Shown here: positions 433 to 37,272 of the stretch, piece by piece
Layout: every line of letters starts with the position of its first letter
How positions within the stretch are numbered: position 1 is the stretch's first letter
Source of the DNA: a virus
Lineage: Duplodnaviria > Heunggongvirae > Uroviricota > Caudoviricetes
DNA: 37,272 bases
Reading direction: 5' to 3' (one strand)
IMG/VR virus record: IMGVR_UViG_2917403263_000004
Coordinates: 1 to 37,272 of that record
Program-made: the position numbers and the translations under genes
Notes under the pieces: generated by a model
What the model was told of the DNA's origin: nothing
The model's database searches: none
What the model saw: the letters and a program-made list of their open reading frames with translations, nothing else

Positions 433-909
433 CGTCCTGTTGCTGCGTAGATCGTCATGTGCGATCGAGGCGCGGTATTGATCCTTTTTTCAGTTTAATT
501 CTGGCTCTTGATTTTGTGCAGGCCGCGCCGCGTCTGGCTTCTTTGTTTGATGGTTGTTTGATGTGATCCCTTCGCGATCGTGTCCTGTCTCACGTAAAGT
601 ATGAAAACTCTTTTAATATCAGCCTGTTTTCTTTCTCCTGCCATTTATGGGATCGTAAAAACCTCTCTGAAAACTGCAAAAAATTTCAAAGCGTGAAATT
701 TCAGATCCTCGCTTTTCCCTCAGTCGCTGCGCGGGCTGGCGGTCATTTTTGCACGGCAGAAAACTGAAAAAGTGTTTCGACACGAAACCCGCGGGTTGGA
801 GGGGGTAGCGCGGTTTACGTCACCTCACGCTTTACGTCACACCGTTTACGCGGTATGTGCATACAGCGCCAGAATGGTATGCAGAACGCATTAATCAGGT
901 GGTGGATAT

Positions 910-13496: not shown

Positions 13497-13582
13497 TTCC
13501 TGTTAATGTCAAGAATAAGAGGGCTTAATAAGACCATCAGGAGGCTTATTAAGACTGTCGGTGGCCTTATCCCGTATCGGAA

Positions 13583-13924: not shown

Positions 13925-14025
13925 TTTTGCTCCTTACGGGGTTGCTGAGGTTTGCGCAGCCAGTGCCACAGCACCCGGATAATTTTCCAGGCGGCAGCGG
14001 CTTTTTGTTCCCTGCGGGACAGCAT
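13921..14025 (-). CDS. Small basic ORF (34 aa) between holin and endolysin
   Basis: Manual translation MLSRREQKAAAAWKIIRVLWHWLRKPQQPRKEQK. AGAGGAG lies 8 nt upstream. Its stop overlaps the endolysin ATG (ATGA). Not in the ORF track because of length. Confidence 0.3.
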   Translation of the reverse strand: MLSRREQKAAAAWKIIRVLWHWLRKPQQPRKEQK

Positions 14026-14030
14026 CGCTG

Positions 14031-14327
14031 TTACTCCTCTTTGTTTTCTTTCTCGCCCAGCTTCCGGCGCATATGGCGCAGGAAAATTTCAACAATCTGG
14101 TAGCCGGCTACGCCCATTGCGGTGCCAGCGCCGGCAATAGCCAGCGGGTCAAGATTCGGATAACGAACCAGCAGGGCTGCAGCAGAAACACCCAATGCGC
14201 TACCCAGCAGGGTTCGCCCCACAAACAACCGCAATGTAATCGGCTCCGCGCCAGCCAGCACCCGGCTGGCGGCGGCAATGCCGCCAAGAATGCCCAGGGT
14301 GATGATGGTGCGTTCATGCTCCTGCAT
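14031..14327 (-). CDS. Holin
   Basis: 98 aa with two hydrophobic segments (IITLGILGGIAAASRVLAG, TLLGSALGVSAAALLV) and a charged C-terminus (RHMRRKLGEKENKEE). Immediately upstream of the endolysin. Confidence 0.6.
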   Translation of the reverse strand: MQEHERTIITLGILGGIAAASRVLAGAEPITLRLFVGRTLLGSALGVSAAALLVRYPNLDPLAIAGAGTAMGVAGYQIVEIFLRHMRRKLGEKENKEE

Positions 14328-14330
14328 GGT

Positions 14331-14786
14331 TCACCCCATCAGCCCGCGCACGTCGTTCTCTGAGAGAACGGGCACGCCGTTGATACGCACAAAATCGGGG
14401 CTGGCCACCACGTACTTGATTTTGTGCGTGGTCAGGTCTGCACTCCCGGTGTCAATGCTTAACAACCCGGAGAGCATCAGCTCGCAACCGAAGGCTTCGA
14501 CGCGGATTTCCTCGGTACCGGTGTTGGCGTAGAACACAAAATCCATTGGCGGCAGATCGCGCCATGATCCTGCCTGAGCGGCCACTTCCCCTAGCTGGTT
14601 AAAACTGCGGGTGCTCATTTCAATTTCACCTTCGGCACTGACGGGGCCGCGCAGTTTGCCGTCAGGGATGCCACGGGTTTTGGCAACGGCGCTTTCATCA
14701 CTGATGTCCAGCGAGATGTTATTCACATGGATATCCGTTCCACCGATAAAGGTGTCAAACGCCATGCCGTTAATGCGGGTGGTCAT
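14331..14786 (-). CDS. Putative tail tube protein
   Basis: 151 aa directly downstream of the sheath-like gene (4-nt overlap). Size and position fit a tube protein. No strong motif. Confidence 0.5.
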   Translation of the reverse strand: MTTRINGMAFDTFIGGTDIHVNNISLDISDESAVAKTRGIPDGKLRGPVSAEGEIEMSTRSFNQLGEVAAQAGSWRDLPPMDFVFYANTGTEEIRVEAFGCELMLSGLLSIDTGSADLTTHKIKYVVASPDFVRINGVPVLSENDVRGLMG

Positions 14787-15931
14787 GCACTTTCCTCCAG
14801 AGATTTATCCAGCTGAATGCCCACCTTGATGGTTTTGGGGCAAGCGTAAGGGCGAACAACAATGCTGATACTGACCGTCTTTTCGTCCTGCCAGGTGATG
14901 GCCACATCGCCTTTTTGTGGCGATTTCACTTCGCCCGGAAAGGTGACACCGTTAATCTGCTTGGATTTCGCCATGGTACGCAGCGGGCGGGCAAACAACG
15001 TTTCATGTGCGGCAATGCTGCCCGGTGTGCTGTTCAGTGAACGATCGGCAATTTTGGGGATGGCCATCAGTCGCACGCGGCGCGCCACCTTATCTGCAAT
15101 GCGGACATGCTCAATGACGTTGTAGTCCCCGCCTTCCACCTCAAGTGTCACACCATCAGCCCAGTAAAGGCCGTCATAGTCGGCATACCACATGGGCACG
15201 CTGTAGCGGGCGGTAGCCAGTGCCTGCAGGGTGGCGAGATCAATTGCCTGTCCTGCGCTGTCCTTCGGACGTTCTGTGGTTTTCAGTGCAGACAGAGCCC
15301 CGGTTGCCACGCGTGCGGGACTGTCAGCAATGGTGACGGCGTTGTTACACAGGCGACCGGCAAGAACGCCCGGTTCAAATCCAAAAATCTCCGGAACCAG
15401 CATGACCTGCGGGGCTGCAATACCTTTCTGTAGCGTGGTCAGTTCGGCGACGTATTCCGCCCAGGTTTTACTGCCGTCGTTGGCGGTGATGGTCAGGATG
15501 AACCAGATGCGGCGCTGATATTTATTAATGATGGTCTGACGTAACGCCTGTATGGCGTTGATGTCATCCTTCGTGCTGACCGGTTCAGTGATCACCACGC
15601 CTTCAACTGAAATGGTTTCCTGAGCGGCCAGCACGGCGTTTTGCCATGCCTGGCAGGCCGGCGTTGCTTCTTTGCCTTTGCCTGCGTCCGGCAGAACGGC
15701 GACATAAAAAAAGGCATTCTGTCCAGCATTGGTCAGAGCGGACTGAAGGAAATTTTTCAACGGGCTCGCGTTCGTTCCCAGCAACTCATCCAGATCGCTG
15801 TTGGCGTTAACCGGCAGAACTTTGCCTTTGTTGTTTTGTGCGCTACCCACAAACAACAGTGTATTTTCCACGCCGTCCGGCGAGCTACTGAACGTGTTGT
15901 ACTGTTCAATCGTGACAGATGGCCAGGTCAT
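14783..15931 (-). CDS. Putative tail sheath protein
   Basis: Start taken at internal ATG 15931 (CAGGAG RBS, 8-nt spacer) rather than the track start 16015, giving 382 aa. Followed by the tube-like gene. Confidence 0.5.
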   Translation of the reverse strand: MTWPSVTIEQYNTFSSSPDGVENTLLFVGSAQNNKGKVLPVNANSDLDELLGTNASPLKNFLQSALTNAGQNAFFYVAVLPDAGKGKEATPACQAWQNAVLAAQETISVEGVVITEPVSTKDDINAIQALRQTIINKYQRRIWFILTITANDGSKTWAEYVAELTTLQKGIAAPQVMLVPEIFGFEPGVLAGRLCNNAVTIADSPARVATGALSALKTTERPKDSAGQAIDLATLQALATARYSVPMWYADYDGLYWADGVTLEVEGGDYNVIEHVRIADKVARRVRLMAIPKIADRSLNSTPGSIAAHETLFARPLRTMAKSKQINGVTFPGEVKSPQKGDVAITWQDEKTVSISIVVRPYACPKTIKVGIQLDKSLEESA

Positions 15932-15950
15932 AATTTGTCTCCTGATTTTG

Positions 15951-16664
15951 TTATCTCGTGCCGCCGTAATGCAGGCTACGCAACTGCGCTTCCAGAATGC
16001 GGGTAAATTCAGCATCGCTGGCTCCCAGAAATGCGCGGGAGGGGATTTTTATTTCCCATACACGTTTTTTCTGCTCGCCTTTCAGAATGCTGATCACCAG
16101 TCCGGCCTGCGCCATACTCATGTTTTCCATAATCCATTTCAGGGAGGGCTTTCTGCGTCCCCTGCGTCCGGTTTTTTTGCTGACTGCGCCGACGGGGGCG
16201 CGAAAGCCCAGAGAAAGAAGCCGCTCCGCCTGCCGTCGTGTGGCGGGTCGGGTGCGCATGGTTTCGTTGTTCCGGCGTTTTGTGGCGCGACCTTTGATGG
16301 TTGCACCGTGCTGTTGCACCCACGCGACCGCCCCGCCATGAGAGCCGGTGTTGTAGCCCCCTTTTTTGAAGAAAAGGCGGACACTTTTCCCGTTACTGTC
16401 AACCCTGATGGCCAGCAGTTTTGGCAGTCCCAGCAGCATTTTGTTTTTATACTTACCGCTGGCTTTATCTGGTCTTTTTCGTGGTGCCCAGGCTGCCCCT
16501 TCCGGTGTTCTCTGTGCTTTCACATTGCGTCGTGCAGCTGGCATCAGGCCGTATTTCGCAATACGAACCAGCAGCTTTCTGGCCTTTACCGGCGGAAGTT
16601 CTGCCGCTCTGATGGCGCGATGAACCTGCCGGAGCTGTGATTCATTAATCGCAGGGCGCGTCAT
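15951..16664 (-). CDS. Virion morphogenesis / tail completion protein (gpS-like)
   Basis: 237 aa with an Arg/Lys-rich middle region. Position between gpR-like and sheath genes. Family assignment from general resemblance only. Confidence 0.45.
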   Translation of the reverse strand: MTRPAINESQLRQVHRAIRAAELPPVKARKLLVRIAKYGLMPAARRNVKAQRTPEGAAWAPRKRPDKASGKYKNKMLLGLPKLLAIRVDSNGKSVRLFFKKGGYNTGSHGGAVAWVQQHGATIKGRATKRRNNETMRTRPATRRQAERLLSLGFRAPVGAVSKKTGRRGRRKPSLKWIMENMSMAQAGLVISILKGEQKKRVWEIKIPSRAFLGASDAEFTRILEAQLRSLHYGGTR

Positions 16665-17134
16665 GGCATCACCTGACAGTGAAGCTGATGTGCCTGAGCC
16701 ACCCAGATTTCAGGTTTTTCCAGCCGGTAACGTTTTCCGCCTCTGGGGATGGGGCCGTTTTCATCCTCAATCAGGGTGATGGGATCAACCAGCGGCAGAC
16801 TGATTTCCAGCCATGCCACTTCATTTTCATCATCCACTTCGACGTCCACGGCTGGCGCATCCGGTGTCAGGCGCTGTCGCAGGTCGCCGCCGTTGTCTGC
16901 CAGCCAGGCTTCAACCAGAGAAAACACCAAATCCGGATCGAGCTGACGATAGGGCCATGCGTCCCATCGCAGAAAAGCCGTATATTTTCTGGCCTGCGTA
17001 CATAACTGCCCGTGCCCCAGCGACTTTGTGAGCGGAACGAGCGTGATATCATCCATGTCACTGGTGAACGGAATGCGTGCGCGTGCCGGCAGATTGTTTT
17101 CAATGAATGCCGTCAGGCTTGCGAGTTGCGTCAT
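16661..17134 (-). CDS. Putative tail completion protein (gpR-like)
   Basis: 157 aa. ATGA-type overlap with the downstream gene. Located right after the head-completion gene, as R is in P2-like phages. Confidence 0.4.
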   Translation of the reverse strand: MTQLASLTAFIENNLPARARIPFTSDMDDITLVPLTKSLGHGQLCTQARKYTAFLRWDAWPYRQLDPDLVFSLVEAWLADNGGDLRQRLTPDAPAVDVEVDDENEVAWLEISLPLVDPITLIEDENGPIPRGGKRYRLEKPEIWVAQAHQLHCQVMP

Positions 17135-17143
17135 ACCGTTTCC

Positions 17144-17638
17144 TTAATCAATCAGCGCGACAGAGGCGCGCGGTCTGCCCAGCAGCGCACGCACCGCCAT
17201 GGCCGCTTCAGCCAGCAACGTCCGGCGGCTCTCGCTGGCTTCTGATGATGGCTGCGCTTCGCGCCGCCCCACACTGGCAGATTCCGGCAAAAGATCGGCC
17301 TTTGCGCGCGCATACACAGCCTTGGTGTACAGTGCTGTAATGTGGTTCTGCATCCGTTCTGATTGTGCATCCGTATTGCGCGGCTCTGGTTGCAACACGG
17401 TGTAACCCGGAATATCAGCAGCCCGGATGTGGCCCTGTTCCTGCCAGTATTCACGGCGCGCAGCCAGTTCAGTGTTAATCTCTGTTACCGCGCAAAGCAG
17501 CGCCGTCAGCACCGTTTCGTGTGACGTGACGGCGGGGATGCTGCGGCTCTTTTCAAAATCGCCGGCATTAATATCCGGCCAGAATCCATCGTTCTGAATA
17601 ATGGCCTGCTGATAGTGAATGCTTTTCCCGTCAAACAT
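17144..17638 (-). CDS. Head completion/stabilisation protein (gpL-like)
   Basis: Start taken at ATG 17638 (GGAGTG RBS); the track ORF starts at a GTG at 17701. Contains GFWPDI, typical of gpL. About 164 aa (P2 gpL is 169 aa). Confidence 0.6.
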   Translation of the reverse strand: MFDGKSIHYQQAIIQNDGFWPDINAGDFEKSRSIPAVTSHETVLTALLCAVTEINTELAARREYWQEQGHIRAADIPGYTVLQPEPRNTDAQSERMQNHITALYTKAVYARAKADLLPESASVGRREAQPSSEASESRRTLLAEAAMAVRALLGRPRASVALID

Positions 17639-17736
17639 GCTCACTCCGAGGAAAGGCGGGCTGACCGGTTTCCGCAGTGTGCTGATGGCTTTTGCCGGCA
17701 CACCTCCACCGCGCCCGCCCGGTTGTTGGGAGTCGT

Positions 17737-18447
17737 TTACGTTCCCTGCAATGCGCGCAGTCTTGCGGCAATGCGCTGGCGCAGGGTTTTCACCTGAATT
17801 TTTGGATGCAGCCAGGCAGCCTGCTCCAGATACTGGTCGGCCTGTTGCAGTATCCCCGGATCACTAATTGCACTGGCCAGTGGTTTGCCGTCATCGCTAC
17901 GCAGCAGCTGGACGCCTGCAAAGCGCCAGTAGCGGGCAGCAAGGCGTTCATTCACACGCCATTTGTCGCGGATTTTTTCAAACACCTGCTGAAAATACGG
18001 TGCGATACTGTTCCCGCGTTCGGCTTCTGTTTCTGCCCATTCGAGAATGAAATGGGCCACAAACGTTGGCAGCTCACTTTTGAAGTTCTCCGGCGTTTTC
18101 TGCCCCTGCTCAATGGCAATGTCAGCCCACTGCAGCGCCAGCTCAAACTGCCCGGTATCAAACAGCCAGATGATGCAGTACACCAGAACGGGATTCTGAT
18201 AGACGCGTTCCCCCTCCAGATAAGCCTGTGCGTGTGGCAGCCAGCGGGGCAGCAGCGTGTTCCGTTTGAATTCCAGCTTGTCAGACAGCAGCTCCATGTT
18301 GTGCAGTTGTCTGATGTCGTTATCCAGTGCCAGCAGCTTAATGTGCTGACTTTCTGTGCTGACGGTGCGCCCGTCTGTTCTGGTCATGAGCGCCGCACGG
18401 CGCTCATCCATCTGTCGGGCTCGTTGTCGCTGCATTGGCGTTGGCAT
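17737..18447 (-). CDS. Terminase small (endonuclease) subunit (gpM-like)
   Basis: About 236 aa. Position between the capsid and head-completion genes as in P2 (O-N-M-L). Start set at ATG 18447 with a GGAG RBS. Confidence 0.6.
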   Translation of the reverse strand: MPTPMQRQRARQMDERRAALMTRTDGRTVSTESQHIKLLALDNDIRQLHNMELLSDKLEFKRNTLLPRWLPHAQAYLEGERVYQNPVLVYCIIWLFDTGQFELALQWADIAIEQGQKTPENFKSELPTFVAHFILEWAETEAERGNSIAPYFQQVFEKIRDKWRVNERLAARYWRFAGVQLLRSDDGKPLASAISDPGILQQADQYLEQAAWLHPKIQVKTLRQRIAARLRALQGT

Positions 18448-18464
18448 ACCGCGCACTCCGTTTA

Positions 18465-19478
18465 TCAGGCGATGGTGACCGCAGACTCATCCACGGCAGC
18501 ATATAAATCCGGATCGCCCAGGGCGTACCCCTCATAACGCCAGTATGAGTTTTCGAACTGTTTGCGATCGCCCACATCTTCCGCTTTACGACGGCGGGAA
18601 CCCTTCAGCGTCAGGATCTGCAGATTTGGCAGCACGGTCACCACCATACGCTTGCCCGGCATAAACGGCGGAATGATGGCCTTGCGGCCCGCAATGTTCT
18701 TCGTCAGCAACTGTGCGGCCACTTTTTCGGTAGGCTTGTCCTCTTTGTTGTAGAGGCGCAGCTCCTCGGCGGCCACAAGGTCAGCGCCGACCAGCACGGT
18801 GAGGCGTGGATCGTTGTGATACTGCGCCGGGATGTAAGTGCGGATCAGGTCAGATGCCATGGCATCCAGTCCCACGTAATCGCCGCCTTCACCCAGGGTA
18901 ACGGCGTCTGTCAGAATACGGGAGGTATTTCCAGGCTGTTCTCCCCACTCACGGGCGATTTCATGCCAGCCGATGTTGACGTCCTCGCCGTTCGGATGGC
19001 TTTCAGGATCGGAGTTTTCCGCTGCTGTTTTACCGTTAAAGCCAATGCGCAGCATATCCAGCGCAAAGTTGGTAACGGCGGCGGAGTTCATCAGGTTGAA
19101 AAATTCCTGCGGGCTGCCGGCATTCGCCCAGATGGCGAGTTGTTCCCAGGTGATCACGCAGCAGGAATCAGTTTCAACGAGTTTAAATTCGTTGCCTTTG
19201 ATGCCTGAACCTTTGGCGAAACGACCGCTTTTCACGCGACCGGTGCGCAGCGTGGATTCGCCAACGGTGACGACCTGTCCCTGCGGGTGCGGAACGTCCA
19301 TGCAGGTGATGAAACTCAGAAACTCGGTGCTTTCCAGTAGTGCTTTACGCAGGGCAATGCTGCGCGGTTCGGTCAGGGAAAAAGTGCGATCACCTGAGAC
19401 AGCGCAGTCACTGAATGTTTTTTGCAGTTCGCTGAGGTACTGATTAACCAGCTTTTGTGCTTCTGGTGTCATGTTCAT
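18465..19478 (-). CDS. Major capsid protein (P2 gpN family)
   Basis: 337 aa. Size and position after the scaffold gene match the P2 gpN family. Confidence 0.8.
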   Translation of the reverse strand: MNMTPEAQKLVNQYLSELQKTFSDCAVSGDRTFSLTEPRSIALRKALLESTEFLSFITCMDVPHPQGQVVTVGESTLRTGRVKSGRFAKGSGIKGNEFKLVETDSCCVITWEQLAIWANAGSPQEFFNLMNSAAVTNFALDMLRIGFNGKTAAENSDPESHPNGEDVNIGWHEIAREWGEQPGNTSRILTDAVTLGEGGDYVGLDAMASDLIRTYIPAQYHNDPRLTVLVGADLVAAEELRLYNKEDKPTEKVAAQLLTKNIAGRKAIIPPFMPGKRMVVTVLPNLQILTLKGSRRRKAEDVGDRKQFENSYWRYEGYALGDPDLYAAVDESAVTIA

Positions 19479-19492
19479 TGCGTTCTCTCCGG

Positions 19493-20383
19493 TTACACCA
19501 GGTTAAAAGTTTCGCCACCGGCCGGATTGTTACCCGGCAGCTTTGTGGCATCCTTGCTGAGTTCAGCAAATGCGGTTTCCATACTGGTGACTTTCTCCGC
19601 GATGGCGTTCACCGTGGAGAACAGCTTTTCACCCTGCTCGGTGGTCAGCGTGAAGGTTTTGTCGTCCTTGTTGTTCTGTTCTGCGTTGTCCTGCCCCTGA
19701 TCGCCAGTGCTGCCTTCCGGCTTGTTATCACCGGTATTTTTCGGGGCATCCTTCGCGCTGAACTGCGCGACGTTTTCTTCCAGTTTGTCCAGGCGTTCGC
19801 CGGTTTTGTTGATGGCGTCCATCAACTGACCGAACTGCTTTTCGTTCATATCGTTTTCCTGTTTGTTGCGTCCCATGGAGAAAAGGTCGGAAAAGAAACT
19901 GCGTTTGGCCTGCTCGTCGTCAGACTGCAGCGTGAAATTCAGTTCTTCTGCATTCCCCATGTGAATGGAATCTCCCTGCGAAAATTGCAGGCGGGTGGTG
20001 TTGATGCTGGCCGGTGTGTCAGTCACAGCGATACCGGATACAAAGAATTTGCCCGTGCCCAGATAGTTTTCCCGCACCTCAATAGAGGTAAAAAGCTTCT
20101 GCCCGGCCTTATTGGCTTCAATCAGGAAGCGATTTGGGATCAGGCGTGCTTTAAGCTGCACCTTGTCACCAAATTTTTCGACTTTCAGGGCATCAACAAG
20201 GCCGTAGTTATTGGTGAAGGCACGCCATCCGGAATCAGCGTGATATGGCCAGAGCATGGCGGCTCGCTCGTCCGGGTTATAAACCTCGGCGGCATCTGTC
20301 AGCCACTTCGGATCAATTTCCCGACCGTCGATGGTGGGGCCTGATGTGGCAACCACAACCCAGTCTGTTTTCTGCTTCGTCAT
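19493..20383 (-). CDS. Capsid scaffolding protein (gpO-like)
   Basis: 296 aa with an acidic/low-complexity C-terminal half (KDAPKNTGDNKPEGSTGDQGQDNAEQNNKDDK). Transcribed divergently from the terminase gene, as in the P2 O/P arrangement. Confidence 0.75.
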   Translation of the reverse strand: MTKQKTDWVVVATSGPTIDGREIDPKWLTDAAEVYNPDERAAMLWPYHADSGWRAFTNNYGLVDALKVEKFGDKVQLKARLIPNRFLIEANKAGQKLFTSIEVRENYLGTGKFFVSGIAVTDTPASINTTRLQFSQGDSIHMGNAEELNFTLQSDDEQAKRSFFSDLFSMGRNKQENDMNEKQFGQLMDAINKTGERLDKLEENVAQFSAKDAPKNTGDNKPEGSTGDQGQDNAEQNNKDDKTFTLTTEQGEKLFSTVNAIAEKVTSMETAFAELSKDATKLPGNNPAGGETFNLV

Positions 20384-20613
20384 CTGAATTAATCCGCTGA
20401 TAAAAATTAAACTGGCGTTATTTAACGGAGAAATAAAAACGTCGTCATCTGATTAATTTCCGGTACTTTCGGATATGCGCATATATCCGAAAAATACCGA
20501 AAACAGATAATCGTTAAAAAAATGCCTGCGGCAAATAATGGGATATTACGGAACGTTACGGAACGAACCGGAAAAAGATGAAAACCCATTAAAATAAATT
20601 CCACAGGTAGTTT
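20384..20613. promoter_or_regulatory. Divergent late promoter region (O leftward / P rightward) with repeat elements
   Basis: 230-bp AT-rich intergenic region. Inverted repeat TTCGGATAT-gcgcat-ATATCCGAA at 20468..20491. Tandem TTACGGAACG x2 at 20546..20565, about 48 nt upstream of the P start. Confidence 0.5.
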
Positions 20614-22401
20614 ATGGCTTATTCTGATGAAGTTATTGCCGCAGCAAAATCACTCTATCTGAAAAGGCACACCCCAAAAGAAATACAAAAGAAGCTCGGA
20701 CTGAACAGTCCGCGAATTGTTTATTATTGGGCGACAAAGTTTGAGTGGTACACACAGCTTAATACTGAAGGCGTGGAGGATGTTATCGCCCGTCGTCTCG
20801 CTGTACTGGCGGAGCGTGACCATAAAACGCCGGAAGAACACGATGAACTCGATCGCCTGATTGGCCACCACGTCAAACTGATGTCGGTCAGAAACAAGCA
20901 CACGGAGCGAATGGCTGAGATTGCACGAATGGGTGCGGACATTCCCCAGCCTGGTCGTTATGGAAAAGAAGAACGCGGAGAAAAAGGTGCAGGTAAGAAA
21001 GAGCGCCCCCGTAAAGCTAATGACGTTTCCGGACTGACTGCTGAAAGTTTTGAGCCGTTTACCAAAAAACTGTTCGCTTATCAGTTGCGCCTGCGTGAAA
21101 ACAAATTCCGCCGTGTACGCAACCTGCTTAAATCCCGCCAGATTGGGGCGACGTATTACTTCGCGTTTGAGGCGTTTGAAGATGCGGCATTAACCGGCGA
21201 CACACAGATATTTTTATCGGCATCAAAACGTCAGGCCGAAGTGTTCCGCACCTATATCGTTAAGATTGCACAAACAGAGTTTGGCATTCCCATTAAAGGC
21301 AATCCGGTTAAGTTAAGTAATCTGGCTGAACTGTATTTTCTGGCGACCAACAGTAACACAGCGCAGTCAAACAGCGGCCACCTGTATATTGATGAATACC
21401 TGTGGATCCCCGGTTTTCGCCGTCTCAATGAAGTGGCATCAGGGATGGCCACCCATAAACACTGGCGCATTACCTATTTCTCCACGCCGTCATCCAAAAC
21501 ACACCAGGGTTACCCGTTCTGGTCTGGCGATGAATGGCGCAAAGGCGATCCGAAACGAAAAGGGGTTGAGTTTCCGTCCTTTGATGAGCTGCGCGATGGT
21601 GGGCGTGAATGTCCGGATGGTCAGTGGCGCTATGTGGTTACGCTGGAAGATGCCATTGCCGGCGGCTTTAACCTTGCTGACATCAACGAGCTGCGCGAGC
21701 GATACAACGAAACAGCGTTCAATATGCTGTTTATGTGTGTGTTTGTGGATGACAAAGAGAGCGTCTTTAAATTCGATGATCTTGTGCGTTGTGGTGTTGA
21801 TGTCAGTACGTGGGAGGATTTTCACCCGGAAGATCCCATGCCATTTGGTAACCGTGAGGTTTGGGGCGGCTTTGACCCTGCGCGCTCCGGCGATAACGCC
21901 ACATTTGTTGTGCTGGCACCGCCGCTGGTTGCGGCAGAACGATTCCGCGTGCTGGAAAAACACCACTGGCGCAGCATGTCATTCCAGTTTATGGCAGAGC
22001 GTATCCGCAGCATTAAGGCACGCTATAACATGACGTTTATCGGCATTGACGTCACCGGTCTTGGCTACGGTGTCTTTGAACTGGTTCAGGGATTTGCCCG
22101 CCGTGAAACAGTGGCCATTCATTACAGCGTGGAATCCAAAAACCGTCTGGTGATGAAGATGCTGGATCTGATTTACGCCAACCGTATTGAGTGGGATGAG
22201 GAAGCCACGGATATTCCGGCATCGTTCCTGGCCATTCGTCAGGAATCCACCAACAGCGGCAATAAAGTCACTTTCACCGCCGAACGTAGCGAAGAAACCG
22301 GGCACTCTGACATCTTCTTTGCCATAGCTCATGCCGCAAGTAATGAACCCCTGAACTATAAGCACAAGCGCAAATCAACATGGATCCTGTCAGATGAGTA
22401 A
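20614..22401 (+). CDS. Terminase large (ATPase) subunit (gpP-like)
   Basis: 595 aa (P2 gpP is about 590 aa). Divergent from O and followed by the portal gene with an 8-nt overlap. Confidence 0.9.
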   Translation: MAYSDEVIAAAKSLYLKRHTPKEIQKKLGLNSPRIVYYWATKFEWYTQLNTEGVEDVIARRLAVLAERDHKTPEEHDELDRLIGHHVKLMSVRNKHTERMAEIARMGADIPQPGRYGKEERGEKGAGKKERPRKANDVSGLTAESFEPFTKKLFAYQLRLRENKFRRVRNLLKSRQIGATYYFAFEAFEDAALTGDTQIFLSASKRQAEVFRTYIVKIAQTEFGIPIKGNPVKLSNLAELYFLATNSNTAQSNSGHLYIDEYLWIPGFRRLNEVASGMATHKHWRITYFSTPSSKTHQGYPFWSGDEWRKGDPKRKGVEFPSFDELRDGGRECPDGQWRYVVTLEDAIAGGFNLADINELRERYNETAFNMLFMCVFVDDKESVFKFDDLVRCGVDVSTWEDFHPEDPMPFGNREVWGGFDPARSGDNATFVVLAPPLVAAERFRVLEKHHWRSMSFQFMAERIRSIKARYNMTFIGIDVTGLGYGVFELVQGFARRETVAIHYSVESKNRLVMKMLDLIYANRIEWDEEATDIPASFLAIRQESTNSGNKVTFTAERSEETGHSDIFFAIAHAASNEPLNYKHKRKSTWILSDE

Positions 22402-23428
22402 AAAGAAAAAATCCCCCGTGTTACACGATGGCGTGGCAAAAAAAACAGCCAGCAAAATGACGTTTATTGAATTTGGTGACCCGGAACCGGTCGCTGCATG
22501 GGGCTGTTATTACGGCTCGCTCTGGGATGGTTATAACGGCTGGTACACGCCGCCCATTGAGCGCATGGATCTCGCCATGTTGGCCAATATCGCACCGTAT
22601 CACGGCGCGGTACTGCGTGCGCGCGTCAATATGATTATGCAGGGTTTTCGTGGGGGTGGTGGTATGACACACGCCGCCATGGCGGCAGCGGTGACCAATC
22701 TGCTGATATTCGGGGATATGGGACTGCTTAAAGTGCGCAATGGTTTCGGGCGGGTGGTGCGCCTGCATACGTTGCCTTCTCTGTACCTGCGGCGTAACAA
22801 CGAGGGTGGCACGGTGATTGTGCAGGCGGCACTGGAAGATCTCGTTTACCCGCCAGGCGAAGTGGTGTTCGTGGCCATTTATGACCCGCAACAGCAGGTT
22901 TACGGTGTCCCGGATTATATTCACGGGATGGAATCTGCCATGCTGAATGTGGATGCCACCCGCTTTCGCCGCAAGTATTACAAGAACGGCGCACATCTGG
23001 GTTATATCCTGTATTCCACTGACCCGGACATGGATCCCGATCTCGAGGCGGAATTCCGTAAAAAGATAGAGGCGTCAAAAGGGGCGGGCAATTTTAAATC
23101 CATGTTTATCAATATACCTGGCGGAGACAAAGAAGGCGTTAAGGTGATCCCTATCGGGGATTCAGGTACAAAAGATGAGTTCCTGAATATAAAAACCATC
23201 AGTGCCCAGGATCAGCTCGTTGCGCACCGTTTTCCACCCGGACTTGCCGGCATCATTCCCGCAAATACGGCCGGGCTTGGTGACCCACTGAAATCCCGCG
23301 AGGCATATTACAGGGATGAGGTTATCCCGATGCGCCGCCTGATTATGGAGGGGATCAACAGCGACCCGGATATCAGACGACTGGGGGAGGTGAAATTTAT
23401 TCTTGATTTTGATGAACCCATGGAGTGA
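22394..23428 (+). CDS. Portal protein (gpQ-like)
   Basis: 344 aa (P2 gpQ is 344 aa). Follows the terminase large subunit gene. Confidence 0.85.
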   Translation: MSKKKKSPVLHDGVAKKTASKMTFIEFGDPEPVAAWGCYYGSLWDGYNGWYTPPIERMDLAMLANIAPYHGAVLRARVNMIMQGFRGGGGMTHAAMAAAVTNLLIFGDMGLLKVRNGFGRVVRLHTLPSLYLRRNNEGGTVIVQAALEDLVYPPGEVVFVAIYDPQQQVYGVPDYIHGMESAMLNVDATRFRRKYYKNGAHLGYILYSTDPDMDPDLEAEFRKKIEASKGAGNFKSMFINIPGGDKEGVKVIPIGDSGTKDEFLNIKTISAQDQLVAHRFPPGLAGIIPANTAGLGDPLKSREAYYRDEVIPMRRLIMEGINSDPDIRRLGEVKFILDFDEPME

Positions 23429-23493
23429 TGTGCGGTATGAGGAAAGAGCGGGTAAAATCGGCGGCAGTAAAACGCTGTTCCGGGAGGTGGAAA

Positions 23494-23751
23494 ATGCGCA
23501 GACAAAAAGCGCGATGTCATTGCTGTGGTGCACATGCGGTGATTGAGAAAACAGCCTGGAAAACCGATCAGTTTGCTGATGTGTATTACCGTTGCACCCG
23601 TCTCGAGTGCGGACATACCTGGGTGATGAATCTGACCTACTCGCACACACTGGTGCCCAGCGGGCTGGAGAATGGTGTGTTAAAGCTGTTGATTGAGCGG
23701 ATGCGCCCGGAAGAAAAACAAATGGCTCTGGAGTTGTTGCAGGCCGGATAG
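23494..23751 (+). CDS. Ogr/Delta-family zinc-finger late-gene activator
   Basis: 85 aa from ATG 23494 (GGGAGGTGG RBS): MRRQKARCHCCGAHAVIEK...YYRCTRLECGHTW. Cys pairs resemble the Ogr zinc finger. The track ORF begins upstream at 23425. Confidence 0.6.
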   Translation: MRRQKARCHCCGAHAVIEKTAWKTDQFADVYYRCTRLECGHTWVMNLTYSHTLVPSGLENGVLKLLIERMRPEEKQMALELLQAG

Positions 23752-23773
23752 CTGACGCGCTTCGCTTGTCCAA

Positions 23774-23820
23774 CCCGGAACGGGCGCACAAAGAATTTGC
23801 GCACCCGTTCCGGGTTTTCT
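23774..23820 (+). terminator. Rho-independent terminator after the Q-ogr unit
   Basis: Roughly 13-bp stem CCCGGAACGGGCGC...GCGCACCCGTTCCGGG followed by TTTTCTT. The convergent Rrf2-like gene stop overlaps the T-run. Confidence 0.55.
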
Positions 23821-24176
23821 TATTCAATGGCAGACAACTGATAATTTGTGTCTTCCTGCAGGCTGGTTAAAGAAATATTATCCAGTGCAGCCAGAATAAC
23901 GTGCTGTGTATATAATCCGGAACATTTCATTGCCCGGACAATATCACCAACACTGTAATTTTCTTTTGTCGGGATATATCCACCACCCGGGCCGCGTGTG
24001 GCTTTTACCAGGCTACTTTCCCGTAAATATCTGAATATTTGCTCCAGATATGACAGTGAAACGGTTTCTTTGCTTAATTGCCGGAGTGAGATTGGCTTTC
24101 CGGTGTACTGTTTCACAAATTTAATCATTACCATAACTGCAACTGATGCACGCTGGCTTCCGGAATTATCTTTCAT
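23820..24176 (-). CDS. Rrf2-family winged-helix transcriptional regulator (short form without Fe-S cysteine cluster)
   Basis: Contains SLSYLEQIFRYLRESSLVKATRGPGGGY, the Rrf2 (IscR/NsrR-like) signature. Start set at ATG 24176 (GGAAG RBS), giving 118 aa. Confidence 0.55.
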   Translation of the reverse strand: MKDNSGSQRASVAVMVMIKFVKQYTGKPISLRQLSKETVSLSYLEQIFRYLRESSLVKATRGPGGGYIPTKENYSVGDIVRAMKCSGLYTQHVILAALDNISLTSLQEDTNYQLSAIE

Positions 24177-24190
24177 CGTGATTACTTCCA

Positions 24191-24466
24191 TTAATGGCAT
24201 AAATTGATGGAGTGGGTCAGTGAATAAAGAGGCATTACATTCCATCCCTTAGAGCGCCAGCTGTCTGCAACATCTTTACTCCTTGTTATTGCTGGTATTC
24301 CGATGCCGTTATTTACATGCATCCATGCCACTGGCTCTGCTTCCAGTGATGCAAGTGCGATTAACATATTGTGATCGTCTTCATCAAGACCGAACGGGAT
24401 GTCTTCGCGCCACGATTTAAACTTTGTGATTTTACGTTGTAGCCATTCTTTGGTAATGGTGGACAT
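24191..24466 (-). CDS. Hypothetical protein (91 aa)
   Basis: ORF in an operon-like array with 3-12 nt spacing. No recognisable motif. Confidence 0.4.
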   Translation of the reverse strand: MSTITKEWLQRKITKFKSWREDIPFGLDEDDHNMLIALASLEAEPVAWMHVNNGIGIPAITRSKDVADSWRSKGWNVMPLYSLTHSINLCH

Positions 24467-25635: not shown

Positions 25636-26595
25636 TTACTCCTTGTCCATTGCGTACAGCCCATTAACCAGAGCAAACTGTGGCACCCCATCCGCGATGA
25701 AAGTCGCATTAACTCCGCAGGCTTCGCGGATAGCGGGTGCCACAATCTCCGCCCCGCCACCGACAACCATCACCCGCCCGTAACCCGAAAAACCCGCCAG
25801 CGCGCGGATCACGCGTTGTTTCAGTGTTTCCTCCTTTTCACGAATAACCGCCATCAGGCTGCCGTAATGCGCGTCATTGTGGATGTGCTGGCGCAGCCAG
25901 GCTTCATCATGGCGATGTTCGATAATGGTATTGGCGATGTGGTGACTGGTGCGCATACCGTTAGTGGCCATCACCGACAGTACGGCATCGGCCATCAGAG
26001 AAACGCCTACGTGTGGATCGCAAAACACCTGGCTGATACCTGCCAGTTGCCCCTGAACCTTTGCCACATCCAGCGTGGTTCCGCCCAAATCCACAATCAG
26101 CAGGGATTCAAACGGACTCATGTCAGCCAGTGCCTTAAAGCCAGCCGGAATGGATTCAGGCATAACCCGTACGTTACGGATAGTGAATGCTTCGCTGTTC
26201 TGGTACTCCACCGGGCGCATGACGTTCGCTTTTTTGCGGTTGATGTTGGCCATGTCCGGCTGTGCGTTTGTATCGAAATACTCGCTCAGTGGCAGGGTGA
26301 CAACCACATCCACTTCCTGTGGTGGGATGCCTGATTTGACCAGCGCGTGATGAATGGCAATGACATTCACATCACTGTACTGATATTGCGTGTCGGTCGT
26401 CTGGACAAAGCGATCGCTGACCGAATCAAAACCATAGCGCACACCATCAAGCATGTAGTTCGCGGGCTGCGTGCCACCGAACGGCGCAGACCATTCCGAC
26501 TTGAAGCTGTTCGGGCTGATGGCGTTGCGGCGTTCGCCGTTCTCAGTCCATGCCAGCTTGATGTTGGTGGAGCCGTCGTCGATACAAATTTTCAT
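25636..26595 (-). CDS. parM: ParM/StbA-family actin-like plasmid segregation ATPase
   Basis: 319 aa. N-terminus MKICIDDGSTNIKLAW...ISPNSFKSEW...QYSDVNVIAIHHALVKSGIP closely parallels R1 ParM (MLVFIDDGSTNIKLQW...ISPNSFKREW...[20 protein letters not shown], recalled from memory). Confidence 0.85.
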   Translation of the reverse strand: MKICIDDGSTNIKLAWTENGERRNAISPNSFKSEWSAPFGGTQPANYMLDGVRYGFDSVSDRFVQTTDTQYQYSDVNVIAIHHALVKSGIPPQEVDVVVTLPLSEYFDTNAQPDMANINRKKANVMRPVEYQNSEAFTIRNVRVMPESIPAGFKALADMSPFESLLIVDLGGTTLDVAKVQGQLAGISQVFCDPHVGVSLMADAVLSVMATNGMRTSHHIANTIIEHRHDEAWLRQHIHNDAHYGSLMAVIREKEETLKQRVIRALAGFSGYGRVMVVGGGAEIVAPAIREACGVNATFIADGVPQFALVNGLYAMDKE

Positions 26596-26623: not shown

Positions 26624-26738
26624 CCGTTTACGGGATTTTTAAATCCCGCTTTCGCCTGTTTTGTGCGCGCTTCATATATCGCGGCGCGTTTTTTGCTCAT
26701 TTACGGGTTTTGTGAATCCCGTTTCTGTCTGTTTTTTG
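26624..26738. repeat. parC-like centromere: two roughly 42-bp direct repeats, each containing an 18-bp palindrome
   Basis: CCGTTTACGGGATTTTTAAATCCCGCTTTCGCCTGTTTTGTG and TCATTTACGGGTTTTGTGAATCCCGTTTCTGTCTGTTTTTTG. Palindromes at 26631..26648 and 26704..26721, 73 bp centre to centre, immediately upstream of parM. Confidence 0.55.
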
Positions 26739-26846
26739 TTTCCACTGGTCAGGCTACCCCGCAGCAGGTCTGCTTTGCGGCGGGCGCGTTCAGTGGTTTC
26801 ACTGATTCTCTGTGCGTGCTCTGCGTCACGGATGGCGCGCAGCATG

Positions 26847-29326
26847 TCAGAAAGCACGGTAACAGGGGTTTTCATGGTGTTCTGGTCCTGCTGAAGTGTG
26901 GATGCCAGGCGTGCGGCGGCTTCGGGGTCTCGATGCCCCCAGCTGTTCCAGATAGCTGGCGACCGGGTTATGGCGGATCTCCGTGCTGCTTACGCCGTGA
27001 TTACGGCTCAGGCGCTGCCAGAGCTGCGTGATTCGGCTGTCCGGGCGGGTATCCGGTTTGCGTACAATTTCAAATCCCTGCGGTGCAATGATGCTGCCGT
27101 CAACGTACAGACTGCCGCCCCGTAACAGGTGCTGCATCTGCTGTTCACCGATATGCAGGCCGAGAGATTCAGCAGACTCCCGCCATTCTTTAGCGAGTAA
27201 CTCATGGTTATCAGGCAAAGGCCACGGTGTTGGCCGTTCTTTCGGCTGTTCTGTCCCGTTGTTGTCCGTTTCCTGTACATGGGGACAGTTATTGCCACGA
27301 GTCCAAGGGGCGGCAGGGCCGCCCTGAAGGTCAAAACCATTTTCGCGGGCGCTGTCTTCCGCTTCCGGTTTACGTCTTACCAGCTTCCAGTTATCCGGGT
27401 GCGTGCACACGCGGGAAGATTCCCCGATGAGCGGCGACCAGATCCCGTAAATCTGTACACTCTGCTCGCCGTAATCGTTCAGCTCATCTGCGAGGTCGTA
27501 GGCGGTGCGAATCAGGTAGTCTTTACGTGGAACAAGTACGCCGCCCTGTTTTTCAATGTAGGAGGCAAAACACCCGGCATCGGCGGCAGCGAGTACCGCA
27601 TCCATTGCGTCATCCTTCAGCCGTTGCGGGCCTTCCGGGTTGCGTGCCATCTGGCTGGCAAGGCGGCGCAGTTCACGCCATACCTGACGGGAGGGGATGC
27701 CAAAGAACTGGAACTGGCGGACCCGATGAAGGCGCGCCCAGCCGATGGCGCGCTCCACGCTCTCGGCCATTGATTTTCCGGTTTCGTGGTCAACGCGTGG
27801 TTTGCCCGTTTTCGGATCGATTCCATCCACGGCGCGGCTGTCCAGGTTTTTTCCGATGTAGGTGGCGATGTAGCTGGTTGGCGTGCCTTTGGAGCCGTCG
27901 ACGTACTCCACCTTAAAGCGCGGAGTAATATCATTGCCCAGCTCGTGGCGGTCTTCCTGAATGGCAATATCGCGGGTGATGGCCACGATGCTGTCGATTT
28001 CTTCCGGATGAGCAAAGACCATCATATGCCAGTGCACGGTGCCGTCATGGTGAGGCTCCACCGTGCGGATGCCATACCAGCGCAGGCCGTCGCGGTTCAG
28101 TTTTTGCGGACCGCCGCAAAAAACGTGTTAACCAGGTAATCGCTGGAGTCGCGCATGGTGGCCCCGTTCCATTTGGGATTCGGATGACCGTTCTCTGTTG
28201 TGGCGTGGTATTTTGACGGGCAGGTGACAGTCAGAAACACCGCTTTGTCGCCACGGGCTTCGGCCAGAAGTTCCAGTCCCTTCATGGTGGCCATCATTTC
28301 TGCCTTACGGTGAACCGGGTTACTTACTCCCGCGTAATACACTGTCTCGAGATCAATCGTGAAGCCGTCTTCGTTTTCCAGTTCGAAGCTCTTCAGGAAG
28401 TCGCGGGTTTTCTCGCGCTGTGCGCGAAACTCGCTTAACGCGTCCTGGCTCAGATAGGGTGATGTTTTTCTGGAAACCAGACAGGCGGCGCGGAGTTGTT
28501 CTTCTCTCCACTCGCAACGTAACAGCCACAGTTTGCGTTTCCACCAGTCCGCACAGGTCAGGCGGAGGATTGCGCCCGGCAGCAGTTCCGTATCCGGATC
28601 GCTCTTGTTCAGGGCTTCGTAATGTGGCGGCATGATGTGCAGGCGTAATGCGATACGAGCCAGCATCCGGTAAGCCTTCAACATTACATCCATGGTCAGC
28701 TCGCCATCTCTGGCACCAAAGCCATCGCAGAGTGTTTCGAAGGTGCTGCTGAACATCGCCGCGGTCATGGTGGCCAGCGTCTGTATCTGGTGCTTGTTGA
28801 GCTGCGGCAGGTAAAGCAAATCGTCCAGGCGTTCGCGCCCGGCAAGGGAGCGATAACCCGGTGTCAGCCAGCGTCCGTCAGTGCGATCCAGACGTTCGAA
28901 TATTTTGCGCAGGGTTCCGCGTGCATAGCGTTCCGCCTGCCAGCTCTTTTTGCCTTTCTGGCGATCGGCTTCCTGTTTTTTGCGCAGGAAGGAGAGGTGG
29001 CGAATAAGCGGATCGCGCAGATAGGACGGCAGCAGGCGCAGCGAGGCCATGGCTTCATCCACCGCGCCGCGTGCCTGCTTTCTGGCGTCTCCTGCCAGTG
29101 TGATGGTTTTGTCCTGTTTTTCCTGTGCGTCCAGGCTTTTATTAATCAGGTTGCCCAGCGGCGTGGCGGAGAACGCCGCATCAGCCATTTCCTGGCGGCG
29201 CTCGTTCTCTACCCGGTAGGCATCCAGCCAGGAGGAAAGCGCGGATTCAGGAGCGGGGATCCCCGTTCCTTCACGCCCCACTGCGTGGCGCGGTTGTTGC
29301 CAGTCCCTGATGTACTCTGCCGTCAT
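26847..29326 (-). pseudogene. Replication initiation protein gpA (rolling-circle HUH endonuclease), split by a 1-nt frameshift
   Basis: Two track ORFs (28097..29326 and 26847..28061) in different frames. The C-terminal part carries HUH and catalytic-Tyr motifs (GTVHWHMMVFAHPEE, YIATYIGK). The frames join if one A is added to the minus-strand A5 run (plus T5 at 28101..28105): ...FFAAVRKK-LNRDGLRWYGIRTVEPHHDG. Confidence 0.7.
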
Positions 29327-30011: not shown

Positions 30012-30235
30012 CTGTAGTTGCAAGTTTTGAAAACTCACCATCCAGAGGTTGCAATTCTGGGTGGTGAGGCGTACGGGGTTGCAACCACCGGCAACTACAG
30101 AAACCGGCCCGACCGAAGTCGGCCCCATACGCCCCACCATAATTCGTGTGCGAAAAAGACGTGGCGATACGGTACGCACAAAAAAACCGCTGGCGCGGTT
30201 GTGCGCTGTAGTTGTCAGCGGGGGTTGCAATCCCG
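30012..30235. repeat. Cluster of short repeats (CTGTAGTTG and GGTTGCAA motifs) in a 320-bp non-coding region
   Basis: CTGTAGTTG at 30012 and 30206, with the inverse GCAACTACAG at 30091..30100. GGTTGCAA at 30047, 30077 (perfect palindrome GGTTGCAACC) and 30222. Confidence 0.5.
30181..30200 (-). terminator. Putative terminator after the upstream early genes
   Basis: On the minus strand, ACCGCGCCAGCGGT hairpin followed by T7, nested inside an outer CGCACA/TGTGCG inverted repeat. Confidence 0.4.
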
Positions 30236-30321
30236 ACACCCGTTTTATGAGGTGCAGCGGAAATGTAACCTGACTGATTGCGGCATGGCAAGCGGTTTTT
30301 TTGTGTGTGCATGATGATTAC

Positions 30322-35979: not shown

Positions 35980-37272
<1,293 letters not shown>

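What the first reader, a model, noticed from the sequence alone, without database searches (positions are those of the whole stretch)
23494..23820. Ogr-like zinc-finger activator located after the portal gene; cos site not identifiable
In P2 the late activator ogr lies at the opposite end of the genome, next to D and attP. Here the only Ogr-like ORF (CxCC...CxxxxC) is co-directional with P and Q, just before a strong terminator. I found no match to the P2 or 186 cohesive-end sequence in the 68-bp gap where cos would be expected.
Basis: partly seen in the sequence, partly recalled or inferred. Interest (0 to 1): 0.45.

Follow-up and report, generated by a model that had tools for sequence, protein, structure and literature searches.

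The report
Ordinary Ogr-type late activator gene
The small gene after the portal gene is a normal Ogr-family zinc-finger activator sitting where all HP1/K139-type P2 relatives keep it, and the "missing" DNA-packaging (cos) site is most likely 22 kb away, after the last tail gene, as in that phage group.

Summary
The sequence facts are correct. Positions 23494-23751 (+) encode an 85-aa protein with an exact CX2CX22CX4C motif. It matches Pfam Ogr_Delta (E 9e-13) and follows terminase P and portal Q. A strong hairpin terminator (23772-23816) comes next. No P2-like cos lies in the Q-ogr gap.

The implied oddity does not hold. The window is an HP1/K139-type prophage of the P2 family (Peduoviridae), not a P2-type one. 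P-Q-ogr is the standard order in K139, phiO18P, HP1, ESSI-2, SI7, YenM_324 and 71 of 80 IMG/VR relatives. The literature already notes this order. It also notes that HP1-like phages keep cos next to attP, not after the portal gene.

By alignment with the ESSI-2 genome termini and the annotated HP1 cos, I place the likely cos at 791-808 (GCGGGTTGGAGGGGGTAG). That is just beyond the last tail gene.

Two conserved cis elements stand out:
- A dyad, TTCGGATAT-N6-ATATCCGAA (20468-20491), occurs once, between the divergent O and P genes. It replaces the P2 TGT-N12-ACA box.
- A TAAAAT motif (23453-23458) sits 35 nt upstream of the ogr start and probably marks the gene's own promoter.

NCBI's PGAP pipeline already annotates this gene in E. 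coli prophages. Interest is low.

The parts
23494..23751 (+). ogr-like gene, 85 aa, C4 zinc finger (CX2CX22CX4C), Ogr/Delta family
   Evidence: ORF. Pfam PF04606 E 9.4e-13. PHROG 603. The four Cys are invariant in an alignment with P2 Ogr, K139 orf13, phiO18P, SW3, ESSI-2 and YenM_324. Variation peaks at codon position 3 (entropy 0.43/0.35/1.09), which indicates purifying selection.
23453..23458 (+). conserved TAAAAT(C) motif 35 nt upstream of the ogr ATG; probable -10 element of the gene's own promoter
   Evidence: The motif is exact in 76 of 81 relatives and has one mismatch in the other 5, always 30-45 nt (30-38 in all but two) from the start codon. It is kept in loci where 2.6-3.6 kb of cargo separates Q from ogr, and in a locus where its TAA is an in-frame stop. 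The surrounding 'N-terminal extension' shows no codon periodicity (0.80/0.72/0.89), so the conservation is at DNA level. No consensus -35 is present, and the simple sigma-70 scan did not call a promoter here.
23482..23490 (+). Shine-Dalgarno-like GGGAGGTGG three bases before the ATG at 23494
   Evidence: Read directly from the sequence. A GGAG-type motif is kept at the same place in diverged relatives. It supports 23494 as the start rather than the GTG at 23425 or the ATG at 23428.
23772..23816 (+). long G+C-rich hairpin followed by a T-rich tail (23817-23825): terminator closing the P-Q-ogr transcription unit, placed between it and the convergent early operon
   Evidence: Most diverged relatives also have a hairpin plus T-run right after their ogr stop.
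20614..23428 (+). terminase large subunit P (20614-22401) and portal Q (22394-23428), the late operon that ogr ends
   Evidence: Pfam Terminase_6N/6C/Terminase_5 and Phage_portal. 53-54% identity to HP1 against 37-43% to P2.
20467..20492 (.). perfect dyad TTTCGGATAT-N6-ATATCCGAAA in the divergent O/P promoter region; candidate operator of the Ogr-like activator
   Evidence: It is unique in the window, with 0 matches expected. The same dyad occurs once per genome, always between O and P, in K139 (0 mismatches), YenM_324 (2), HP1 (3) and ESSI-2 (3), and is absent from phiCTX. It is found in 42 of 80 IMG/VR loci at up to 4 mismatches, with a single off-target hit. Related variants sit at the same place in the 17 other loci inspected.
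791..808 (+). probable cohesive-end (cos) core, GCGGGTTGGAGGGGGTAG, 167 nt beyond the stop of the last tail gene (975-2672, -)
   Evidence: It aligns with the 15-nt terminal direct repeat of the linear ESSI-2 record (GCGGGTGCGGTGTAG) and with the annotated HP1 cos junction. It matches the P2 cos 19-mer at 12 of 19 positions by eye. It occupies the same topological place as in HP1, between the orf35 homologue and attP/int.
814..850 (+). three TTTACG(TCAC) repeats at 814, 831 and 845 beside the cos core; possible terminase recognition repeats
   Evidence: ACGTAA/ACGGAA repeats flank the HP1 and K139 ends in the same way. The function is inferred.
23820..24245 (-). Rrf2-family regulator gene, last gene of the convergent early (replication) operon; context only
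   Evidence: Pfam Rrf2 E 3.9e-13. PGAP calls it an 'RrF2 family transcriptional regulator'.

Best explanation
The ORF at 23494-23751 encodes an Ogr/Delta-family C4 zinc-finger protein. It is the late-gene transcription activator of an HP1/K139-type prophage of the P2 family (Peduoviridae) integrated beside serS.

The gene is the last gene of the P-Q late operon and ends at a strong terminator that faces the convergent early operon. This is the standard position for this phage group.

Inferred mechanism:
- A weak promoter of its own, marked by the conserved TAAAAT at 23453-23458, gives the first protein.
- The protein binds the single dyad TTCGGATAT-N6-ATATCCGAA at 20468-20491.
- By analogy with P2 Ogr, it recruits RNA polymerase to the two divergent late promoters, roughly 50-55 bp to either side.
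- This turns on O-N-M...tail/lysis leftward and P-Q-ogr rightward. The rightward unit feeds back positively on ogr. P2 ogr is likewise read through from the F operon.

The cos site is not next to Q. It lies at about 791-808, after the last tail gene and near the attL end, as in HP1.
For: Shown here:
- Motif and family match.
- It is the only Ogr-like ORF in the element.
- PGAP annotates the 98.7%-identical locus in E. coli prophages as 'ogr/Delta-like zinc finger family protein'.
- The same P-Q-ogr order occurs in SW3, K139, phiO18P, ESSI-2, YenM_324 and SI7, and in an unannotated HP1 ORF. It also occurs in 71 of 80 IMG/VR loci.
- The literature states this position for K139 and Smhb1 (PMC8537503).
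- The literature also states that HP1-like cos sites lie next to attP rather than after the portal gene (PMC2771037).
- The morphogenesis genes are HP1-type.
- The ESSI-2 terminal repeat and the HP1 cos align to 791-808.
- The dyad is conserved from Haemophilus and Vibrio to E. coli, once per genome, always between O and P.
- The TAAAAT motif is conserved as DNA, not as coding sequence.
- The P2 record notes that the terminator after ogr also serves the F operon, which shows the same 'end of a late operon' logic.

Inferred only: activation, the alpha-CTD contact, promoter positions and the feedback loop.
Against: No experiment bears on this particular protein. The P2-type operator TGT-N12-ACA is absent from the O/P region, so the binding site is inferred only from conservation and position. 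Only one dyad is found in the window, whereas P2 has four late promoters. Either one long late operon exists or other sites went unrecognised. The proposed ogr promoter has no recognisable -35 and was not called by the consensus scan. The cos assignment rests on homology to one deposited terminal repeat and one annotated cos; identity in that stretch is modest. In this copy the replication gene A carries two frameshifts and int carries one, relative to an intact relative. The prophage may therefore be defective, or the sequence may contain errors.
Confidence: 0.8

Rival explanations
1. One reading: a P2-type genome in which ogr has been moved to a new place after the portal gene, and in which cos has diverged beyond recognition or been lost in the Q-ogr gap.
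For: No P2 cos is found within 3 mismatches. In P2 itself ogr does lie next to D and attP.
Against: The structural module is HP1-type. The arrangement is shared by every HP1-type relative examined and is described in the literature. The gap holds a conserved promoter-like motif and a Shine-Dalgarno sequence, not a cos-like sequence. ESSI-2's record termini are not near its ogr gene.
Confidence: 0.04
2. The protein is an Ogr-fold zinc finger with another regulatory job, such as control of lysogeny, of cargo genes or of a satellite. Late genes would then be switched on by something else.
For: P2 Ogr alone does not detect it by tblastn; identity is 21% in the alignment. It carries a conserved C-terminal tail (P-E-x-R/K-Q-x-x-L-x-L-L) that P2 Ogr lacks. 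The P2 operator consensus is absent. Two IMG/VR loci, L026 and L027, have an 86-89%-identical gene with no P, Q or O upstream.
Against: It is the only candidate late activator in the element. It is physically tied to the late P-Q operon across genera. A conserved dyad sits exactly where P2 has its activator site between pO and pP.
Confidence: 0.08
3. In this particular copy the gene is a leftover in a decaying prophage and currently drives nothing useful. This is compatible with the best explanation for the family.
For: Gene A is split over three reading frames and int over two, relative to the intact E. coli relative.
Against: The ogr ORF, its upstream motif, the dyad, and P, Q and all the large late ORFs are intact. 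The frameshifts could be sequencing errors. Five IMG/VR loci encode a 100%-identical protein.
Confidence: 0.3

Closest known systems
K139 orf13 (Vibrio phage K139) and its equivalents in phiO18P, ESSI-2, SI7/SW3 and YenM_324: the ogr homologues of HP1-like Peduoviridae
   Same: Same family (39-51% identity), similar length and the same conserved C-terminal tail. The position is the same: directly after P-Q, before a terminator, convergent with the replication operon. The same dyad lies between O and P.
   Different: K139 has an extra small orf14 between Q and orf13. K139 and phiO18P carry a CTGT-N8-ACAG sequence upstream of the gene that the window lacks, and they lack the TAAAATC motif at the enterobacterial spacing.
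P2 Ogr, 186 B and P4 Delta (Pfam PF04606 founders)
   Same: CX2CX22CX4C zinc finger and small size. The gene sits at the 3' end of a late operon followed by a shared terminator. A single dyad lies midway between divergent O and P promoters (PMC3931495).
   Different: Only 21% identity in the alignment. P2 Ogr lacks the C-terminal tail. The gene location differs: next to D and attP in P2, after Q here. The operator sequence differs: TGT-N12-ACA in P2, TTCGGATAT-N6-ATATCCGAA here.
HP1 genome architecture (cos next to attP)
   Same: The gene order is int-cI | cox-rep ... | ogr-Q-P | O-N-M ... tail-orf33-35 | cos. The last tail genes are orf34/orf35 homologues. A C-rich cos core with flanking ACGTAA-type repeats is present.
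   Different: The early region is P2/P88-like (GpA, ParM, C4 RNA), with 96% DNA identity to phage P88. A hok/sok module sits between cos and attL. The HP1 record's own ogr-like ORF is unannotated and split between two frames.

Membership tests
Ogr/Delta zinc-finger activators (Pfam PF04606) | Four cysteines spaced CX2CX22CX4C (definition cited in PMC3931495) | tested here: met
   C8, C11, C34 and C39. All four are invariant in the alignment with P2 Ogr and five HP1-type homologues.
Ogr/Delta zinc-finger activators (Pfam PF04606) | Profile match above the curated threshold over the full domain | tested here: met
   48.3 bits against a 26.3 cut-off, model positions 1-47 of 47.
Ogr/Delta zinc-finger activators (Pfam PF04606) | Late promoters carry the TGT-N12-ACA activator site (P2/186/P4 subgroup) | tested here: not met
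   The window has 9 matches against 9.3 expected, and none lies in the O/P intergenic region. A different conserved dyad occupies that position. This argues against membership of the P2/186 specificity subgroup, not against membership of the family.
Ogr/Delta zinc-finger activators (Pfam PF04606) | Binds zinc; activates late promoters by contact with the RNA polymerase alpha subunit (the rpoA109 phenotype; from my own knowledge of P2) | not testable with these tools
   This needs biochemistry or genetics. No solved structure of a relative exists; the only weak profile matches are to TFIIS/RPB9 zinc ribbons (E 0.007-0.05).
HP1-like Peduoviridae genome organisation | HP1-type morphogenesis genes, including the orf33-35 tail-end block | tested here: met
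   Pfam HP1_ORF34 at 9.7e-54. The orf35-like, sheath and terminase proteins match HP1 and K139, whereas the orf34/orf35-like and sheath proteins have no hit in phiCTX (P2 was held only for its first 3.5 kb, so only P and Q could be compared with it).
HP1-like Peduoviridae genome organisation | The ogr homologue lies between the portal gene and the end of the replication operon | tested here: met
   stated for K139 and Smhb1 in PMC8537503.
HP1-like Peduoviridae genome organisation | cos lies next to attP, after the last tail gene, not after the portal gene | tested here: inconclusive
   Positions 791-808 align with the ESSI-2 terminal repeat and the annotated HP1 cos (PMC2771037). No physical ends are known for this element or for a close relative.
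P2/186-type cos downstream of Q | A 19-nt GGCGAGGCGGGGAAAGCAC-like cohesive end within about 200 bp after the Q stop | tested here: not met
   No match within 3 mismatches anywhere in the window. The Q-ogr and ogr-Rrf2 gaps hold a promoter-like motif, a Shine-Dalgarno sequence and a terminator hairpin.

The most novel reading that the evidence does not exclude
HP1-type Ogr proteins form a distinct specificity class. They would recognise TTCGGATA-N8-TATCCGAA rather than TGT-N12-ACA. A single operator between O and P would control the whole late programme. Because ogr is the last gene of the activated P-Q operon and also has its own conserved -35-less promoter, the switch would be a self-reinforcing loop. 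I found no description of this operator or of the TAAAAT element in the papers I could search.
Probability: 0.5. Interest if true: 0.3.

Novelty: already known. Interest (0 to 1): 0.1.

Why it matters
It matters little beyond correct annotation. The finding shows that P2 is the wrong template for this prophage. Using the HP1/K139 template explains both the position of ogr and the absence of cos near the portal gene.

There are modest by-products:
- A testable operator for the HP1-type activators.
- A conserved promoter element for ogr.
- A predicted cos core for a group of E. coli, Salmonella and Cronobacter prophages whose ends have not been mapped.

These could help define prophage termini and late promoters in annotation pipelines.

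Tried and rejected
- **P2 cos search.** The 19-mer with up to 3 mismatches found nothing.
- **Short-word blastn.** The HP1, K139 and phiCTX end junctions against the window gave only chance-level hits. The relationship became visible only in a collinear alignment.
- **Sensitive blastn ('distant' mode).** Window 330-1000 against the phage collection gave no match.
- **TGT-N12-ACA.** It occurs at chance frequency and not in the late promoter region.
- **Longer ORF** from the GTG at 23425 or the ATG at 23428, overlapping the Q stop. I rejected it as the true start. The extension shows no codon-position signal, 21 of 81 relatives have an in-frame stop there, K139, phiO18P and P2 start at the short position, and a strong Shine-Dalgarno sequence precedes 23494.
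- **Second ogr.** The P2 Ogr tblastn search found no match in the window, and neither that search nor a motif regex found any second Ogr-like ORF; the other regex matches do not have the CX2CX22CX4C spacing.
- **Further late-promoter dyads.** None is convincing. Isolated half-sites at 10518 and 14155 lie inside genes.
- **Tools and sources that did not deliver.** NCBIfam gave no hit. PDB gave no meaningful relative. The search for related loci with the 7-sequence alignment failed, so I repeated it with a tighter alignment. The K139 genome paper is not held in the library.

Full report
**Observation**

The reported span holds an ORF from the ATG at 23494 to the stop ending at 23751. A long hairpin follows at 23772-23816, with a T-rich tail after it. 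The folded stretch has dG -39 kcal/mol and z = -5.6.

The 85-aa product has cysteines at 8, 11, 34 and 39. That is exactly the CX2CX22CX4C spacing that defines Ogr, as cited in PMC3931495. It matches Pfam Ogr_Delta over the whole model (E 9.4e-13, 48.3 bits against a 26.3 cut-off). It also matches PHROG 603, 'transcriptional regulator'.

It is the only Ogr-like reading frame in the window. It lies directly after terminase P (20614-22401) and portal Q (22394-23428), on the same strand. The P2 cos 19-mer has no match with up to three mismatches anywhere in the window.

**What the element is**

The window is almost a whole prophage, bounded on the right by serS (35980-37272). From left to right it contains:
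- a hok/sok-type module (1-320);
- a 650-bp non-coding stretch;
- the tail, lysis and capsid genes on the minus strand (975-20383);
- P-Q-ogr on the plus strand;
- a convergent early operon on the minus strand, running from a Cox-like gene through GpA and ParM to an Rrf2-type gene;
- an integrase.

The morphogenesis genes are HP1/K139-type:
- Pfam HP1_ORF34 matches at 1e-53.
- The last three tail genes correspond to HP1 orf33-35.
- Terminase and portal are 53-54% identical to HP1, against 37-43% to P2.
- The sheath and the orf34/orf35 homologues hit HP1 and K139 but not phiCTX; P2 could not be compared for these genes, because only its first 3.5 kb was held.

The early region is 96% identical in DNA to phage P88 and its relatives. 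Close copies of the ogr region (98.7% identity) occur in E. coli chromosomes: 74 of 5426 complete genomes have a match, 36 of them over at least 80% of the query. NCBI's PGAP pipeline already names the gene there 'ogr/Delta-like zinc finger family protein'.

**Position of ogr**

The order P, Q, zinc-finger gene, terminator, then the end of the convergent replication operon is found in:
- Salmonella phages SW3 and SI7;
- Vibrio phage K139, where orf13 is annotated 'zinc-finger protein';
- Aeromonas phage phiO18P;
- Cronobacter phage ESSI-2;
- Yersinia phage YenM_324;
- HP1 itself, as an unannotated ORF.

A scan of IMG/VR viral contigs found at least 567 relatives. Among the 80 best loci, Q lies within about 130 nt upstream in 71. 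Six have 2.6-3.6 kb of inserted cargo between Q and ogr. Three lack Q.

[quoted passage not shown] By contrast, phiCTX keeps its homologue in the early region, and P2 keeps it next to D and attP. The position is therefore the norm for this branch, not an anomaly.

It also preserves the P2 logic. In P2 the terminator after ogr is annotated as serving both the ogr transcript and the late F operon. Here too ogr ends a late operon.

**Where cos is**

In HP1 the annotated cosL is at position 1 of the mature genome. That is beside attP and int, just beyond the last tail gene orf35, and 10 kb from Q. [quoted passage not shown]

The linear ESSI-2 record starts 199 nt beyond the stop of its orf35 homologue. 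It carries the same 15 nt, GCGGGTGCGGTGTAG, at both ends, which is the signature of a cohesive-end genome.

Window 560-980 is collinear with the ESSI-2 junction and with the corresponding SI7 region. In a five-way alignment, the ESSI-2 repeat and the HP1 junction both fall opposite window 791-808, GCGGGTTGGAGGGGGTAG. This G-rich core agrees with the P2 cos at 12 of 19 positions by eye. It is followed by three TTTACG repeats at 814, 831 and 845. These resemble the ACGTAA/ACGGAA repeats beside the HP1 and K139 ends.

I therefore place cos at about 791-808. That is 167 nt past the last tail gene, with the hok/sok module between it and attL. This is an inference from homology, and no physical ends are known.

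**What the Q-ogr gap contains instead**

Across 81 sequences, a TAAAAT motif (usually TAAAATC) lies 30-45 nt before the ogr start codon (30-38 nt in all but two). It is exact in 76 and has one mismatch in the other 5. In the window it is at 23453-23458.

It persists in loci where cargo separates ogr from Q, and in a locus where its TAA is an in-frame stop. The apparent N-terminal extension, open from the Q stop in many relatives and annotated that way in SW3 and ESSI-2, shows flat variation across codon positions (0.80/0.72/0.89). The ogr body shows 0.43/0.35/1.09.

So the conservation is in the DNA, not in a protein. I read the motif as the -10 element of ogr's own promoter, with no recognisable -35. 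The simple consensus scan did not call it. The start at 23494, three bases after GGGAGGTGG, is the one PGAP uses, and it matches the K139, phiO18P and P2 N-termini.

**Likely operator**

TGT-N12-ACA occurs at chance frequency in the window (9 matches against 9.3 expected) and not between O and P. Instead, a perfect dyad TTTCGGATAT-N6-ATATCCGAAA sits at 20467-20492, in the 230-bp divergent O/P region. It is unique in the window, with 0 matches expected.

The same dyad occurs once per genome, always between O and P:
- K139, 0 mismatches;
- YenM_324, 2 mismatches;
- HP1 and ESSI-2, 3 mismatches each.

It does not occur in phiCTX. In the IMG/VR set it is found at up to 4 mismatches in 42 loci, each time 64-123 nt before P, with one off-target hit. 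The 17 inspected loci without such a hit carry a visibly related variant (TTCGGTTATA...) in the same place.

A-T-rich -10-like hexamers lie about 50-54 bp to either side of the dyad centre (my reading). This is comparable to P2, where one activator site lies 55-56 bp from both the pP and pO starts.

I infer that this is the operator of the HP1-type Ogr proteins. No further site was found in the late region. Either the leftward late cluster is one long operon, or other sites are too diverged to recognise.

**Mechanism**

Shown:
- family membership;
- gene position;
- the terminator;
- conservation of the dyad;
- conservation of the upstream motif.

Inferred:
- A weak promoter of ogr's own yields some protein.
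- The protein binds the dyad.
- By analogy with P2 Ogr, whose contact with the RNA polymerase alpha subunit I cite from my own knowledge, it activates both divergent late promoters.
- Because ogr is the last gene of the rightward unit, activation reinforces itself.

**Comparison and novelty**

The protein is a member of the Ogr/Delta family and belongs to the HP1/K139 subgroup. It shares 39-51% identity with those homologues and 21% with P2 Ogr. It has a C-terminal P-E-x-R/K-Q-x-x-L-x-L-L tail that P2 Ogr lacks.

The gene, its position and the cos placement rule are all already documented or annotated. I found no description of the dyad or of the TAAAAT element in the papers I could search. 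They are incremental refinements.

**Caveats**

In this copy, gene A is spread over three reading frames and int over two, compared with an intact relative. The prophage may be defective, or the sequence may contain errors.

**Verdict**

This is an ordinary, correctly recognised Ogr-type gene in its usual place. The 'missing cos' came from using the wrong template. Interest is low.

Noticed in passing
window 26672-29326 (-) and 34846-35854 (+): The replication endonuclease gene A is split over three reading frames, with breaks near 26919-26938 and 28103-28124. The integrase is split over two frames, with a break near 35339-35436. Both comparisons are with the intact E. coli EC42405 prophage. 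The prophage is either decaying or the sequence has errors.
   Followed up: partly
window 30057-30144 (-) and 30180-30255 (-): Rfam finds a C4 antisense RNA (82 bits) and an isrK Hfq-binding sRNA (58 bits) side by side in the early region. The relative has an 'ash family' pseudogene at the corresponding place. This looks like a P1/P7-style antisense immunity module inside a P2-family prophage.
   Followed up: no
window 1-320: A Hok/Gef toxin gene with its upstream regulatory region lies between the predicted cos and attL. Related copies occur in about 1670 E. coli genomes. It is a cargo gene beside cos, much like ctx in phiCTX.
   Followed up: no
window 25636-26595 (-) and the adjacent small ORFs: A plasmid-type ParM segregation ATPase sits inside an integrated prophage, together with the 'plasmid partitioning/stability' partner gene that PGAP annotates next to ParM in the relative. 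The module is shared at 96% DNA identity with phage P88 and its relatives.
   Followed up: no
window 20546-20565: A tandem direct repeat, TTACGGAACG x2, lies in the leader of the P gene. It is absent from the otherwise similar E. coli EC42405 intergenic region. It resembles the CACGGAA repeats near the HP1 and K139 ends. Its meaning is unknown.
   Followed up: no
L006 (HP1, NC_001697) 10447-10680, minus strand: HP1 has an unannotated Ogr-like ORF right after its portal gene. In the deposited sequence the N-terminal CxxC part and the remainder are in different frames. This may be an old sequencing error or a real frameshift in HP1c1.
   Followed up: partly
L004 (K139) about 3900-3920 and L005 (phiO18P) about 3910-3930: A perfect CTGT-N8-ACAG sequence, which looks like a LexA box, lies upstream of the ogr-like gene in K139 and phiO18P. 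HP1 has a partial version. The window and its enterobacterial relatives have none.
   Followed up: no
L049, L050, L059, L061, L066, L070 and L026, L027 (IMG/VR loci): Six relatives carry 2.6-3.6 kb of inserted DNA between the portal gene and ogr while keeping the TAAAAT motif. Two loci have an 86-89%-identical ogr gene with no P, Q or O within 6 kb upstream.
   Followed up: no
L007 (E. coli A36) 4409-6144, compared with window 35854-37272: In strain A36 the tail/hok end of a 93%-identical prophage abuts the 3' end of serS. In the window the integrase end abuts the 3' end of serS. The opposite orientation suggests an inversion or a different arrangement in one of the two genomes.
   Followed up: no
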